In this document: one piece after another, positions 50,441 through 55,514 of the stretch
Layout of the letters: the number at the start of each line of letters is the position of its first letter
Position numbering within the stretch: position 1 is the stretch's first letter
Origin: Octopus sinensis
Taxonomy: Eukaryota
Direction of reading: 5' to 3'
NCBI RefSeq assembly: GCF_006345805.1
Contig: NC_043003.1
Location: forward strand, 1,240,001-1,304,000
DNA length: 64,000 bases
Position numbers: made by a program

Positions 50441-53400
50441 GAGAGGGATGACCACTTATGCTAGAAGTAGTTCCACTGTGGCCTTACCACTAAGAAATGT
50501 TCTCAAGAAAATTTAGCAAACAGCAGAACGTAAGTGAGCAAGGCAAAGGAAAAGTAAACTGAACCTTCAGTTTTTTAATATGCTAGACCACTGGTTTTAA
50601 ATTGATGTTAATCAAATTAATGTCCAAATTTTTCACCCTCATTTTAATTATATATATATATCACTCATAAGGCTTTGGTCGGCCCAGTACTATAGTAGAA
50701 GACACTTTCCTAGGGTGCCACGCAGTGGGACTGAACCCGGAACCATGTGGTTGGGAAGCAAGCTTCTTACCACACAGCCACGGAATTGTATAAAATAATT
50801 GTTAGAATATTTTGTGTGTTGCATAAGTATAACCAATTCATTGCAGATAAATTTTAACAAGAAAATCTTAAATGGACCCCAAAGGGTCAAGTGGACCCCA
50901 AAGGGTCAAGTGGACCCCAAAGGGTCAAGTGGACCCCAAAGGGTCAAGTGGACCCTGGTGGCGATCCAATGCAGATGAAGATAGATCTTTTGTTGGTTAT
51001 CTTTACTCCACTCGGGGGTGGGGTCAAAAGACTTGAAGAAAGAAGATGCATACATATTTATACGTTTGCCAAAAGCATTGGTGACATCAGAGAACTCAGA
51101 ATTAAAAGAGACAGAATAAATATGAGACTTAATAATAATTACTGAAATTGATTTGTTCAACTAAACCGGGTACTTTTTGGTTATCTCACCCCCATTAAAA
51201 CAATTGCCATGAAAAAACTGGGTTATCTCCCCACTAAAAAATCGAGTTAACGTGGCGACGAGAGATTGGATCGAAAGAGTTCGATCCTTTTGCTTCAATA
51301 CTTCAACACATTGATGACTCTTTTGGCCTCCTCAATAGGAATGGTAGGATTTGGTATGAAAAATGTCATCAGATTCAATGAGATGTTTAATCTTTTCGCT
51401 TTTCATGTTTATTAATATTTTCAGTTTTGTAGGATTTGGTATAAAAAATGTCATCAGATTCAATGAGATGTTTCATCGTTTCGCTTTTCATGTTTATTAA
51501 TCTTTTCAGTTTTGTAGGATTTGGTATAAAAAATGTCATCAGATTCAATGAGATGTTTAATCTTTTCGCTTTTCATGTTTATTAATCTTTTCAGTTTTGT
51601 AGGATTTGGTATGAAAAATGTCATCAGATTCAATGAGATGTTTAATCTTTTCGCTTTTCATGTTTATTAATCTTTTCAGTTTTGTAGGATTTGGTATGAT
51701 AAATGTCATCAGATTCAATGAGATGTTTCATCTTTTCGCTTTTCATGTTTATTAATCTTTTCAGTTTTGTAGGATTTGGTATGAAAAATGTCATCAGATT
51801 CAATGAGATGTTTAATCTTTTCGCTTTTCATGTTTATTAATCTTTTCAGTTTTGTAGGATTTGGTATGAAAAATGTCATCAGATTCAATGAGATGTTTAA
51901 TCTTTTCGCTTTTCATGTTTATTAATCTTTTCAGTTTTGTAGGATTTGGTATGAAAAATGTCATCAGATTCAATGAGATGTTTAATCTTTTCGCTTTTCA
52001 TGTTTATAATAAATTTTCAGTTTTGTAGGATTTGGTATGAAAAATGTCATCAGATTCAATGAGATGTTTAATCTTTTCGCTTTTCATGTTTATTAATCTT
52101 TTCAGTTTTGTAGGATTTGGTATGAAAAATGTCATCAGATTCAATGAGATGTTTCATCTTTTCGCTTTTCATGTTTATTAATCTTTTCAGTTTTGTAGGA
52201 TTTGGTATGAAAAATGTCATCAGATTCAATGAGATGTTTAAACTTTTCGCTTTTCATGTTTATTAATCTTTTCAGTTTTGTAGGATTTGGTATGAAAAAT
52301 GTCATCAGATTCAATGAGATGTTTAATCTTTTCGCTTTTCATGTTTATTAATCTTTTCAGTTTTGTAGGATTTGGTATGAAAAATGTCATCAGATTCAAT
52401 GAGATGTTTAATCTTTTCGCTTTTCATGTTTATTAATCTTTTCAGTTTTGTAGGATTTGGTATGAAAAATGTCATCAGATTCAATGAGATGTTTAATCTT
52501 TTCGCTTTTCATGTTTATTAATCTTTTCAGTTTTGTAGGATTTGGTATGAAAAATGTCATCAGATTCAATGAGATGTTTAATCTTTTCGCTTTTCATGTT
52601 TATTAATCTTTTCAGTTTTGTAGGATTTGGTATGAAAAATGTCATCAGATTCAATGAGATGTTTAATCTTTTCGCTTTTCATGTTTATTAATCTTTTCAG
52701 TTTTGTAGGATTTGGTATGAAAAATGTCATCAGATTCAATGAGATGTTTCATCTTTTCGCTTTTCATGTTATTAATCTTTTCAGTTTTTAGGATTTGGTA
52801 TGAAAAATGTCATCAGATTCAATGAGATGTTTCATCTTTTCGCTTTTCATGTTATTAATCTTTTCAGTTTTGTAGGATTTGGTATAAAAAATGTCATCAG
52901 ATCAATGAGATGTTTAATCTTTTCGCTTTTCATGTTTATTAATCTTTTCAGTTTTGTAGGATTTGGTATAAAAAATGTCATCAGATTCAATAAGATGTTA
53001 ATCTTTTCGCTTTTCATGTTTATAATCTTTTCAGTTTTGTAGGATTTGGTATAAAAAATGTCATCAGATTCAATGAGATGTTTAATCTTTTCGCTTTTCA
53101 TGTTTATTAATCTTTTCAGTTTTGTAGGATTTGGTATAAAAAATGTCATCAGATTCAATGAGATGTTTCATCGTTTCGCTTTTCATGTTTATTAATCTTT
53201 TCAGTTTTGTAGGATTTGGTATAAAAAATGTCATCAGATTCAATGAGATGTTTAATCTTTTCGCTTTTCATGTTTATTAATCTTTTCAGTTTTGTAGGAT
53301 TTGGTATAAAAAATGTCATCAGATTCAATAAGATGTTTAATCTTTTCGCTTTTCATGTTTATTAATCTTTTCAGTTTTGTAGGATTTGGTATAAAAAATG

Positions 53401-55514
53401 TCATCAGATTCAATGAGATGTTTAATCTTTTCGCTTTTCATGTTTATTAATCTTTTCAGTTTTGTAGGATTTGGTATAAAAAATGTCATCAGATTCAATG
53501 AGATGTTTAATCTTTTCGCTTTTCATGTTTATTAATCTTTTCAGTTTTGTAGGATTTGGTATAAAAAATGTCATCAGATTCAATGAGATGCTTAATCTTT
53601 TCGCTTTTCATGTTTATAATCTTTTCAGTTTTGTAGGATTGGTATAAAAAATGTCATCAGATTCAATAAGATGTTTAATCTTTTCGCTTTTCATGTTTAT
53701 TAATCTTTTCAGTTTTGTAGGATTTGGTATAAAAATTTCATCAGATCAATGAGATGTTTAATCTTTTCGCTTTTCATGTTTATTAATCTTTTCAGTTTTG
53801 TAGGATTTGGTATAAAAAATGTCATCAGATTCAATAAGATGTTTCATCTTTTCACTTTTCATGTTTATTAATCTTTTCAGTTTTGTAGGATTTGGTATAA
53901 AAAATGTCATCAGATTCAATGAGATGTTTAATCTTTTCGCTTTTCATGTTTATTAATCTTTTCAGTTTTGTAGGATTTGGTATAAAAAATGTCATCAGAT
54001 TCAATAAGATGTTTAATCTTTTCGCTTTTCATGTTTATAATCTTTTCAGTTTTGTAGGATTTGGTATAAAAAATGTCATCAGATTCAATGAGATGTTTAA
54101 TCTTTTCGCTTTTCATGTTTATTAATCTTTTCAGTTTTGTAGGATTTGGTATAAAAAATGTCATCAGATCAATGAGATGTTTAATCTTTTCGCTTTTCAT
54201 GTTTATTAATCTTTTCAGTTTTGTAGGATTTGGTATAAAAAATGTCATCAGATTCAATAAGATGTTTAATCTTTTCGCTTTTCATGTTTATTAATCTTTT
54301 CAGTTTTGTAGGATTTGGTATAAAAAAGTCATCAGATTCAATAAGATGTTAATCTTTTCGCTTTTCATGTTTATTAATCTTTTCAGTTTTGTAGGATTTG
54401 GTATAAAAAATGTCATCAGATTCAATGAGATGTTTCATCGTTTCGCTTTTCATGTTTATTAATCTTTTCAGTTTTGTAGGATTTGGTATAAAAAATGTCA
54501 TCAGATTCAATAAGATGTTTAATCTTTTCGCTTTTCATGTTTATTAATCTTTTCAGTTTTGTAGGATTTGGTATGAAAAATGTCATCAGATTCAATAAGA
54601 TGTTTAATCTTTTCGCTTTTCATGTTTATTATTCTTTTCAGTTTTGTAGGATTTGGTATAAAAAATGTCATCAGATTCAATGAGATGTTTAATCTTTTCG
54701 CTTTTCATGTTTATTAATCTTTTCAGTTTTGTAGGATTTGGTATAAAAAATGTCATCAGATTCAATAAGATGTTAATCTTTTCGCTTTTCATGTTTATTA
54801 ATCTTTTCAGTTTTGTAGGATTTGGTATAAAAAATGTCATCAGATTCAATGAGATGTTTAATCTTTTCGCTTTTCATGTTTATTAATCTTTTCAGTTTTG
54901 TAGGATTTGGTATAAAAAATGTCATCAGATTCAATAAGATGTTTAATCTTTTCGCTTTTCATGTTTATTAATCTTTTCAGTTTTGTAGGATTTGGTATAA
55001 AAAATGTCATCAGATTCAATGAGATGTTTCATCGTTTCAGTTTTGTTTTTCCGGTTTATTGAGGGTTAAACATTTTTTTAAGATGAGATAACCAAAAGTA
55101 CCGATATTTCTCATAAAACTTGGGGAGATAACCCAGTTTTTTAATGGGGGTGAGATAACCAAAAAGTACCCTAAAGGCAGTTCAGCCAGCATGGCTGCAG
55201 TCCAATGACTGAAACAAGGGATGGATAAGCAATTAAAACTCATCAACTGCCATGGATGTAAAAACTCGTTCTAAAATTTCTTGTGTTTAGATAACAGGAG
55301 ATCCAACCGTAACCAACCCGTTTCTAAGTCTATCTAGGAGTATTGAACATTTTTTGGTACCGGATCACCATGAATATTGTCTCCAACGCTCAATAATTCT
55401 TTCAGTAAAAGGCACAACGCCAGCAATTCGATAAGGGACAGTTTTCTTTGCTCGCTGACACAAACAAGGAAGCCATTGGCAATGTGCAATGGGCGGCGAC
55501 AAGGAGACAGGCCT

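What the first reader, a model, noticed from the sequence alone, without database searches (positions are those of the whole stretch)
51168..55171. TIR element carrying a 3.7-kb, 85-bp satellite: candidate mobile satellite-seeding element
The array is bracketed by 33-bp perfect TIRs starting GGGTAC, with repeated GGTTATCTC motifs inside the ends (2 left, 3 right) that resemble transposase-binding sites. There is no ORF. About 92% of the element is satellite. This suggests a non-autonomous DNA transposon that amplifies and could disperse a satellite. The superfamily is unclear: the right flank is TAA (Harbinger-like), but the left flank is TAAACC, so there is no clean TSD.
Basis: partly seen in the sequence, partly recalled or inferred. 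Interest (0 to 1): 0.7.

Follow-up and report, generated by a model that had tools for sequence, protein, structure and literature searches.

The report
TIR element carrying 85-bp tandem array
A 4-kb non-coding stretch with matching inverted ends and about 44 tandem copies of an 85-base unit sits as an insertion inside an older interspersed repeat; it looks like a known kind of passive DNA transposon whose internal repeat has grown unusually long.

Summary
Perfect 33-nt inverted ends lie at 51168-51200 and 55139-55171. GGTTATCTC occurs 5 times, only in the two arms. An 85-bp x 43.6 array at 97% identity makes up 92% of the element. No coding frame is present.

New evidence: the two flanks are neighbouring parts of one interspersed-repeat family with at least 11 other copies in the window. 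The 4,004 bp are therefore an insertion whose borders coincide with the inverted ends.

No clean target-site duplication exists. Depending on which form of the host repeat was hit, there is either no duplication at all, or TAA/TAAA plus 2-3 stray bases on the left.

The array shows blocks of shared variants but no higher-order period. That is the pattern expected from local unequal exchange or slippage.

No other copy of the ends or the unit lies in the 64 kb, and no eukaryotic genome collection was available. Family size, dispersal ("seeding") and an autonomous partner therefore stay untested.

Tandem-repeat-bearing non-autonomous transposons are well described (Tetris, miDNA4, DTC84/pearl, HINEs). 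This is a new member of a known kind, notable for about 44 units inside still-perfect ends and for the missing duplication. Interest is low to moderate.

The parts
51168..55171 (+). Whole inserted element, 4,004 bp, non-coding
   Evidence: Inverted ends. The flanks are contiguous in paralogous repeat copies. The longest open frame is 117 aa and lies inside the array.
51168..51200 (+). Left terminal inverted repeat, 33 nt, starts GGGTAC
   Evidence: 33/33 complementary to the right end; 0 expected by chance.
55139..55171 (-). Right terminal inverted repeat, 33 nt
51207..51233 (+). Left subterminal block homologous to 55121-55147. It is separated from the terminal repeat by a 15-nt insertion found only in the left arm.
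   Evidence: (I2: 27 nt, 96%) and the alignment.
55121..55147 (-). Right subterminal block homologous to 51207-51233
51179..51187 (+). GGTTATCTC copy, starting at nt 12 from the left tip
51221..51229 (+). GGTTATCTC copy, starting at nt 54 from the left tip
55152..55160 (-). GGTTATCTC copy, starting at nt 12 from the right tip
55125..55133 (-). GGTTATCTC copy, starting at nt 39 from the right tip
55085..55093 (-). GGTTATCTC copy, starting at nt 79 from the right tip
55071..55102 (-). Inner, imperfect second copy of the terminal sequence (GGTAC-TTTTGGTTATCTCA...) within the right arm
   Evidence: 55071-55102 against 55134-55170 is 81% over 37 columns; 55072-55102 against 51169-51204 is 80.6% over 36 columns.
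51234..51343 (+). Left internal unique segment with no detectable similarity to the unit
   Evidence: local score 16; 101 of 300 shuffles scored as high.
51268..51287 (+). Perfect 8-bp stem with a 4-nt loop (GGATCGAA AGAG TTCGATCC), followed by TTTT
   Evidence: Read and present in the fold. The 143-nt segment as a whole is not unusually stable (z = -0.94).
51344..55038 (+). Tandem array of an 85-bp unit: 43 full units plus one degenerate unit. The unit is 74% A+T.
   Evidence: 43.6 copies, 97%; 44 units; mean pairwise identity 0.970 over 43 units; 9 of 43 identical to the consensus.
51598..52870 (+). Block of 15 consecutive units (u04-u18) that carry G at unit position 16
52871..54983 (+). 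Block u19-u43 with A at position 16 (except u39). The A38 variant occurs in 11 of these 25 units.
54984..55046 (+). Last, degenerate unit. It runs from ...GATGTTTCATCGTTTC directly into the AGTTTTGT of the unit's end, skipping about 25 nt that lie between two ATC(T/G)TTTC direct repeats.
   Evidence: 19 differences from the consensus; 19-nt match with score 28; 1 of 300 shuffles scored as high.
55047..55070 (+). Right internal unique segment
51068..51167 (+). Left half of the interrupted host interspersed repeat; ends ...gatttgttcaactaaacc
55172..55218 (+). Right half of the interrupted host repeat; starts taaaggcagttcagccagcatggctgcagtccaatgactgaaacaag
   Evidence: (hits at 40363, 15575, 24191, 49268 and others).

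Best explanation
This is a non-autonomous class II (terminal-inverted-repeat) DNA transposon copy. Its backbone is about 310 bp: a 176-bp left arm and a 133-bp right arm. Its internal 85-bp unit has been amplified to about 44 tandem copies. The copy sits as an insertion in an old copy of an interspersed repeat.

Proposed working:
- A transposase, possibly with a DNA-binding helper, is made elsewhere in the genome.
- It binds the same-oriented GGTTATCTC copies at nt 12, 39/54 and 79 from each tip.
- It pairs the two ends, cuts at the GGG...CCC tips and moves the whole unit, array included.
- The array itself grows and shrinks by replication slippage or unequal sister-chromatid exchange, not by transposition.

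Shown: the inverted ends, the motif clustering, the lack of coding capacity, the insertion with borders at the ends, and the block-wise variant structure of the array.

Inferred: mobilisation by a transposase in trans, the role of the motif, and any spreading of the array to other loci.

The superfamily is unassigned. PIF/Harbinger-Spy ('PHIS') is the leading guess, and it is held weakly.
For: - The ends are 33/33 complementary, with homology over 51 nt apart from one 15-nt indel.
- GGTTATCTC matches exactly 5 of 5 times within the 309 bp of arms, against 0.36 expected in 64 kb. All copies have the same orientation relative to their tip.
- Left flank ...actaaacc and right flank taaaggcagt... 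are adjacent in uninterrupted paralogs. Examples are the copy at 15576(-), actaaacc-tttc-aaggcagtgcc, and the copy at 49268(-), cgac-taaaggcggtgc.
- No frame exceeds 117 aa.
- Array structure: 15 consecutive G16 units; A38 only in the right half (11 units); the rare combination C47+G51 in u02, u22, u37 and u44; and shared 1-nt deletions in non-adjacent units. Identity is flat over lags 1-8, so there is no higher-order period.
- Literature: internal arrays in MITEs, and their expansion into satellite-like arrays, are described (review PMC12628747, passages; PMC3879986, Introduction; PMC4079207, section 20).
Against: - There is no clean target-site duplication, which nearly all cut-and-paste families make.
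- Only one copy of the ends and of the unit is visible, so repetitiveness, the basic property of a transposon family, is not shown.
- No transposase with these ends lies in the window. The only transposase-like frame (37234-38082; Tc3-type HTH and DDE_3) sits between its own 191-nt inverted repeats.
- The binding role of the motif is an inference from position only.
- The host repeat copy is only 56-71% identical to its 11 paralogs, so the exact pre-insertion sequence is uncertain.
Confidence: 0.7

Rival explanations
1. This is a duplication-free PHIS-type element, akin to Spy. The transposase inserts it precisely, without duplicating host bases, so the missing duplication is a family trait rather than damage.
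For: - With the long form of the host repeat as reference, the borders are flush: actaaacc|E|taaaggc against actaaacc-tttc-aaggc, and no base is repeated.
- The tips start with GG, as in several PHIS groups (PMC4482050, section 5 and passages).
- Spy elements are TIR elements without target duplications in invertebrates (PMC4122938, abstract and passages).
Against: - Spy's two diagnostic features were tested and not met. The target here is ACC|TAA, not AAA|TTT. The tip is GGGTACTT, not GGANNNNG.
- One copy cannot establish a family trait.
- The short-form reading of the host repeat gives a TAA/TAAA duplication instead.
Confidence: 0.12
2. This is an ordinary PIF/Harbinger-like element with a TAA duplication. 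The host was the short form of the repeat (cgacTAAAggc), and the 3 nt ACC (or 2 nt CC after TAAA) between the left TAA and the left tip are filler or a later change.
For: - Short-form paralogs read cgac-taaaggcgg (copies at 49268 and 61448). Removing ACC, the element and one TAA restores exactly that.
- The right flank is TAA.
- The TIR is under 60 nt and begins with G, as stated for PIF/Harbinger (PMC4482050, section 5).
Against: - The ACC is exactly what 3 of the 5 clear long-form paralogs carry at this place (copies at 15576, 59693, 24189), so it looks native to the host repeat.
- The right flank shares 'cagtcc-aatgac' with long-form copies.
- Overall identity does not discriminate: 0.71 to the best long-form copy and 0.69 to the best short-form copy.
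Confidence: 0.25
3. This is a non-autonomous Helentron (HINE/DINE-1/pearl-like) rolling-circle element. Such elements typically carry central tandem repeats and make no target duplication.
For: A central tandem array and no clean duplication are both HINE traits (PMC4067079, passages; review PMC12628747).
Against: - HINE inverted repeats are about 13 bp and asymmetric: 2-4 nt from the 5' tip and 38-60 nt from the 3' tip. Here 33-nt perfect repeats sit flush at both tips.
- There is no palindrome 8-35 nt from either tip, and the folds of both ends are no better than shuffles (z = +1.60 and -0.25).
- There is no run of T at the borders (left border C|G, right border C|T).
- There is no microsatellite next to the array.
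Confidence: 0.04
4. This is a one-off insertion that was not made by a transposase. A linear or circular piece of DNA, for example an excised element or extrachromosomal repeat DNA, was captured at a chromosome break by end joining. That leaves no duplication and may lose a couple of host bases.
For: There is no duplication, and there are 2 fewer bases than in long-form paralogs at the junction (acc-[E]-ta-aaggc against acc-tttc-aaggc).
Against: - Both tips are intact to the last base of a perfect inverted repeat, whereas end joining usually nibbles the ends.
- The 2-nt difference is within the normal variation of a repeat copy that is 29-44% diverged from its paralogs.
Confidence: 0.08
5. The structure is an assembly artefact: mis-joined or mis-counted repeat units.
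For: - Tandem arrays are often mis-sized in assemblies.
- 1-nt deletions occur in 13 of the 43 full units.
Against: - The two flanks belong to one host repeat copy, in the right order and orientation.
- Several of the 1-nt deletions are shared by non-adjacent units (for example the same deletion in u19, u29 and u34). That pattern indicates inheritance, not random error.
Confidence: 0.03

Closest known systems
miDNA4 of Xenopus, a Tc1/mariner MITE with an internal satellite-like repeat (Scalvenzi & Pollet; seen only as described in review PMC12628747, passages)
   Same: Both are short non-autonomous TIR elements whose interior holds one to many copies of a tandem unit. The proposed path is expansion inside the element, then loss of the ends, then a classical satellite.
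   Different: The superfamily differs: there is no TA duplication here and the tips are GGG...CCC. Copy-number variation among family members could not be examined here.
Tetris / TIR-220 of Drosophila virilis (PMC4079207, abstract and section 20)
   Same: Both are non-autonomous elements whose own internal tandem repeats expanded to kb-size arrays; up to 66 copies are reported for Tetris.
   Different: Tetris is foldback-like and its repeats lie inside long inverted repeats. Its large arrays are thought to have disrupted the element. Here the array is central, in one orientation, and the ends are intact.
DTC84 / pearl / DINE-1-type tandem-repeat-containing MITE-like elements, now regarded as HINEs (PMC3879986, abstract and Introduction; PMC4067079, passages)
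   Same: Both show a cassette layout, with conserved arms around a central array of variable copy number.
   Different: Those elements carry 'usually up to 6' units (DTC84 up to five), a microsatellite at one end of the array, short asymmetric subterminal repeats and T-rich or AA/TT borders. None of these features is seen here.
Spy and other PHIS groups: PIF/Harbinger, ISL2EU, Pangu, NuwaI, NuwaII (PMC4122938, passages; PMC4482050, section 5 and passages)
   Same: The tips begin with GG(G), the target is A+T-rich, and the right flank is TAA. Spy gives a precedent for TIR elements with no duplication.
   Different: No group's target rule is met on both sides: TWA, A|AT|T, AAA|TTT, ANT, CWG and C|TNA|G all fail. 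No transposase is available to test kinship.

Membership tests
Non-autonomous TIR (class II) transposon / MITE-like element | Terminal inverted repeats at both tips | tested here: met
   33/33 complementary, with 0 expected by chance.
Non-autonomous TIR (class II) transposon / MITE-like element | No transposase gene | tested here: met
   The longest stop-to-stop frame is 117 aa and lies inside the array.
Non-autonomous TIR (class II) transposon / MITE-like element | An insertion relative to an empty site | tested here: met
   The flanks are contiguous in paralogous copies of the host repeat. No orthologous empty site was available.
Non-autonomous TIR (class II) transposon / MITE-like element | Target-site duplication of fixed length | tested here: inconclusive
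   There is none if the host was the long form. If it was the short form, there is TAA/TAAA displaced by 2-3 nt.
Non-autonomous TIR (class II) transposon / MITE-like element | Multiple dispersed copies sharing the ends | not testable with these tools
   There is 1 copy in the 64 kb. No eukaryotic genome collection was offered. The prokaryote scans gave 0 hits and are uninformative.
Non-autonomous TIR (class II) transposon / MITE-like element | Small size (usually up to 600 bp; PMC3879986, Introduction) | tested here: not met
   The element is 4,004 bp. The backbone without the array is 309 bp, or about 394 bp with one unit.
PIF/Harbinger | 3-nt TWA duplication on both sides (PMC4482050, section 5) | tested here: not met
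   TAA abuts the right tip. On the left the abutting bases are ACC, and TAA lies 3 nt further out.
PIF/Harbinger | TIR mostly under 60 nt, first base A or G | tested here: met
   The TIR is 33 nt and starts with G. This is a weak, non-specific criterion.
PIF/Harbinger | Autonomous partner with a DDE transposase plus a Myb/SANT ORF sharing the ends | not testable with these tools
   None lies in the window, and the genome is not searchable.
Spy | Insertion between AAA and TTT without duplication (PMC4122938) | tested here: not met
   The borders are ...AAACC| and |TAAAGG.
Spy | Terminal 5'-GGANNNNG-3' | tested here: not met
   The tip is GGGTACTT.
Helentron-associated elements (HINE/DINE-1/pearl) | Short (about 13 bp) asymmetric subterminal inverted repeats: 2-4 nt from the 5' tip and 38-60 nt from the 3' tip (PMC4067079) | tested here: not met
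   The 33-nt repeats are flush at both tips.
Helentron-associated elements (HINE/DINE-1/pearl) | Palindrome 8-35 nt from the 3' tip | tested here: not met
   The folds of both ends are no better than shuffles. The only clean hairpin is 100-120 nt from the left tip.
Helentron-associated elements (HINE/DINE-1/pearl) | TT or T-rich target with runs of T at the borders | tested here: not met
   The borders are C|G and C|T. Long-form paralogs do have a T-run at this place.
Helentron-associated elements (HINE/DINE-1/pearl) | Central tandem repeats | tested here: met
Satellite DNA (in the strict sense) | Long arrays at many loci or high genomic abundance | not testable with these tools
   One 3.7-kb array is visible, and there is no unit outside it in the window.

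The most novel reading that the evidence does not exclude
The element belongs to an undescribed group of TIR transposons that insert without duplicating the target. This group would be distinct from Spy in both target and tip sequence. The element would still be mobile while carrying a 3.7-kb tandem array, and so would be a satellite 'vehicle' caught before its ends decay.
Probability: 0.1. Interest if true: 0.6.

Novelty: new member of a known kind. Interest (0 to 1): 0.3.

Why it matters
How new satellite DNAs arise and reach new chromosomal sites is still argued mostly from decayed remnants. A copy that keeps perfect ends around about 44 units is the intermediate stage that the 'expansion inside a MITE' model predicts. 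If other copies with different unit numbers exist in this genome, the family would allow a direct test of whether arrays travel with the element or grow after landing. The missing target duplication, if it is a family trait, would also bear on how varied the insertion chemistry of PIF/Harbinger-related transposases is. With one copy in hand, this remains an ordinary, well-precedented structure.

Tried and rejected
- Other copies in the window: none was found. I tried the 33-mer with up to 3 mismatches, a 28-mer of the unit (38 of 38 matches inside the array), blastn of both arms (they hit only each other), and blastn of a unit dimer (best outside hit E = 0.1).
- Public collections: the only open one holds bacteria and archaea. 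A 24-nt tip probe and a 24-nt unit probe each gave 0 hits, which says nothing about eukaryotes. The collections metagenome contigs and viral contigs, and both protein-homology searches, were closed. The phage, plasmid and E. coli collections were not queried because they are irrelevant.
- Literature by sequence string: four 13-17-nt strings from the tip, the motif, the host repeat and the unit were searched. Two papers held at least 1 of the 4 terms; the 1 that was listed is a lipid-transfer paper holding the 13-mer, judged unrelated from its title and abstract start. The element is not in print as far as that single search can tell.
- Origin of the unit from the arms: the left internal segment shows no similarity to the unit (101 of 300 shuffles scored as high). 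Only the right junction does, and it is a truncated unit.
- Higher-order repeat: rejected, because identity is flat over lags 1-8.
- Structured RNA, tRNA or a known RNA family: 0 Rfam matches and 0 tRNAs in the window.
- Other tandem repeats in the window (44717-44968, 50873-50955, 9968-10200, 43287-43456): none is bracketed by comparable inverted repeats.
- The Tc1-like element as partner: rejected, because it has its own unrelated 191-nt inverted repeats.
- Assigning the host repeat copy to the long or short form by identity: inconclusive (0.71 against 0.69).
- A search for papers on Myb-like binding sites in Harbinger ends was listed but none of the papers was read, so nothing is taken from it.
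- Supplementary files, for example the Spy TIR and empty-site figures of PMC4122938 and the family tables of PMC4482050, were closed and may hold tips resembling this one.

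
Full report
Observation.

The region reads as described. The repeat finder gives arms 51168-51200 and 55139-55171, 33 nt and 100% complementary. The 33-mer with up to 3 mismatches occurs only at these two places in the 64,000 bases, and none of 100 shuffles gave a match.

Homology between the two ends goes further in. A second block, 51207-51233 against 55121-55147, is 96% complementary over 27 nt. In a pairwise alignment the ends agree over 29 + 22 columns, interrupted by a 15-nt insertion in the left arm.

GGTTATCTC occurs exactly 5 times in the window. 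All copies are in the arms and all point the same way relative to their tip, starting at nt 12 and 54 from the left tip and nt 12, 39 and 79 from the right tip. The expectation is 0.36 and 0 of 100 shuffles reached 5. With one mismatch allowed the count (20) is not clearly above chance (12.68 expected; 5 of 100 shuffles reach 20). None of the imperfect matches is in the element. The third right-hand copy is part of an inner, imperfect duplicate of the terminal sequence (55071-55102 against 55134-55170, 81%).

Tandem Repeats Finder reports 51344-55038, period 85, 43.6 copies, 97% matches. That is 92.3% of the 4,004 bases. The longest stop-to-stop frame touching the element is 117 aa and lies in the array. 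The window holds no N.

Surroundings.

The window is A+T-rich (62%) and full of microsatellites. It contains reverse-transcriptase fragments and a Tc1-type transposase remnant. It has no tRNA and no Rfam match. This is the picture of a repeat-rich animal-type genome. I did not try to name the organism.

It is an insertion.

blastn of the flanks against the window showed that the 47 bases right of the element (55172-55218) recur at many places. Reading those places and aligning 11 of them with the two flanks added as separate fragments shows that both flanks are parts of one interspersed-repeat family. In uninterrupted copies they adjoin. Examples:
- The copy at 15576(-) reads gatttgtccgactaaacc-tttc-aaggcagtgcc.
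- The copy at 49268(-) reads catttgttcgac-taaaggcggtgc.
- The window's interrupted copy reads gatttgttcaactaaacc-[4,004 bp]-taaaggcagttc.

The borders of the inserted DNA therefore coincide with the tips of the inverted repeat. This is paralogous, not orthologous, empty-site evidence. It is the method used in the papers cited below.

The target-site question.

The host family comes in two forms at exactly this place. Of the 11 paralogs:
- 5 clearly have an extra segment of about 11 nt (…ctaa[a]-acc/gtt/att-NttN-aaggc; copies at 59693, 15576, about 7.9 kb, about 9.3 kb and 24189).
- 3 clearly lack it (…cgactaa-aggc; copies at 61448, 49268 and about 17.0 kb).
- 3 are truncated or rearranged there.

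Reading A, a long-form host: 'acc' is native, since 3 of the 5 long copies have it. The right flank differs from t[c/g]aaggc by one base, nothing is duplicated, and the copy is 2 nt shorter than its relatives.

Reading B, a short-form host: caacTAAAggc became caacTAA-acc-[E]-TAA-aggc. That is a TAA (or TAAA) duplication with 3 (or 2) unexplained bases before the left tip.

The interrupted copy is 56-71% identical to the paralogs. Its best long-form match is 0.71 and its best short-form match is 0.69, so identity does not decide. I lean to A, because 'acc' and the 'cagtcc-aatgac' signature of the right flank are long-form traits. I hold B at about one in four.

The array.

I cut it into 44 units of 83-86 nt and aligned them.
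- Mean pairwise identity of the 43 full units is 0.970, and 9 of 43 equal the consensus.
- Variants are arranged in blocks. G at position 16 occurs in u01, u04-u18 and u39.
- A at position 38 occurs in 11 units, all among u20-u43.
- The pair C47+G51 occurs in u02, u22, u37 and the terminal u44.
- Identical 1-nt deletions recur in non-adjacent units, for example u19, u29 and u34. The runs u19-u24 and u34-u38 share an order of variants.
- Identity does not depend on lag (lags 1-8 range 0.972-0.975), so there is no higher-order repeat.

This is what repeated unequal exchange or slippage within one array produces. It also argues that the 1-nt deletions are inherited, not read errors.

The last unit is degenerate. 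It passes from ...CATCGTTTC straight to AGTTTTGT, skipping about 25 nt that lie between two ATC(T/G)TTTC direct repeats of the unit (1 of 300 shuffles scored as high). The 110-nt left internal segment shows no similarity to the unit (101 of 300 shuffles). It holds one clean 8-bp hairpin at 51268-51287. Neither the unit nor the arms resemble anything else in the window.

What it most likely is and how it works.

The anatomy is that of a non-autonomous TIR transposon: about 310 bp of arms with perfect inverted tips, repeated subterminal motifs, no gene, and a demonstrable insertion. I propose that a transposase made elsewhere binds the GGTTATCTC sites, pairs the ends and moves the element, cargo included. 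The array changes length by replication or recombination errors. The first half of this is shown. The binding, the trans-mobilisation and any dispersal of the array are inferred.

At 4.0 kb the element is no larger than typical autonomous PIF/Harbinger elements, which average about 4,124 bp (PMC4482050, section 5). Size alone therefore does not argue against mobility. Whether the 44 units were acquired before or after this insertion cannot be told from one copy.

Comparison with known systems.

Tandem repeats inside non-autonomous elements are well documented.
- The Introduction of PMC3879986 lists DINE-1, SGM, mini-me, PERI, MINE-2 and pearl, with arrays 'usually up to 6'. DTC84 has up to five (abstract).
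- Tetris of D. virilis supplied repeats that expanded within the element to arrays of up to 66 copies (PMC4079207, section 20).
- The 2025 review PMC12628747 (passages) describes the Scalvenzi-Pollet model: expansion inside a MITE, then decay of the ends, then a classical satellite.

The present element fits that model as an intermediate with intact ends. It is not a HINE/Helentron. Those have about 13-bp asymmetric subterminal repeats, a palindrome 8-35 nt from the 3' tip and T-runs at the borders (PMC4067079, passages). Here the repeats are 33 nt and flush, the end folds are no better than shuffles, and the borders are C|G and C|T.

Among PHIS groups (PMC4482050; PMC4122938) no target rule is met on both sides. 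Spy's AAA|TTT target and GGANNNNG tip are both absent. The superfamily therefore stays open, with PHIS as a weak lead (GGG tip, TAA on the right, A+T-rich target).

Limits.

The decisive check, searching the rest of this genome for the ends and the unit, could not be run. A full-text search for four strings from the locus found nothing relevant. Supplementary files of the transposon papers were closed.

Verdict.

This is a new member of a known kind. It is worth a genome-wide follow-up mainly for the large array inside intact ends and the absent target duplication.

Noticed in passing
window 36929-38487: A Tc1-like element with 191-nt inverted repeats (93% complementary) around a 282-aa open frame (37234-38082). 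The frame matches HTH_Tnp_Tc3_2 (E = 1.6e-15) and DDE_3 (E = 2.4e-07). AT microsatellites lie on both sides.
   Followed up: partly
window, at least 11 copies (e.g. 61330-61510 +, 49205-49390 -, 59630-59810 -, 15515-15700 -): An interspersed repeat family ending ...ccagcatggccgcagtcaaatgactgaaacaagtaaaag, often followed by an A-rich or microsatellite tail. It comes in two forms that differ by an indel of about 11 nt, exactly where the studied element is inserted. No tRNA-like head was detected by ARAGORN.
   Followed up: partly
window 44717-44968: A 36-bp unit repeated 7.0 times at 100% identity. Each unit contains a short palindrome (TTACCTATATAGGAAA). It has no bracketing inverted repeats.
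   Followed up: partly
window 50873-50955: A 19-bp unit (TGGACCCCAAAGGGTCAAG) repeated 4.4 times at 100% identity, about 210 bp upstream of the element. No inverted repeats surround it.
   Followed up: partly
window 46058-46702 (-) and 16144-16521 (-): Reverse-transcriptase fragments (RVT_1, E = 2.8e-25 and 8.5e-08), presumably from decayed LINE-like elements.
   Followed up: no
window-wide, e.g. 33426-34068, 56228-56644, 15741-16070, 7162-7461: Very long tetranucleotide microsatellites of the ACAT/ATGT type (75-160 copies) and many long AT and AC dinucleotide runs. Several abut copies of the interspersed repeat.
   Followed up: no
window 51268-51287: A perfect 8-bp stem with a 4-nt loop followed by TTTT, in the left arm of the element, 100-120 nt from the tip. 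Its function is unknown.
   Followed up: partly
window 9968-10200 and 43287-43456: Imperfect minisatellites (units of about 21-95 nt and 45-52 nt, 67-84% matches) lying within open frames of repeat-like sequence. They were not examined further.
   Followed up: no
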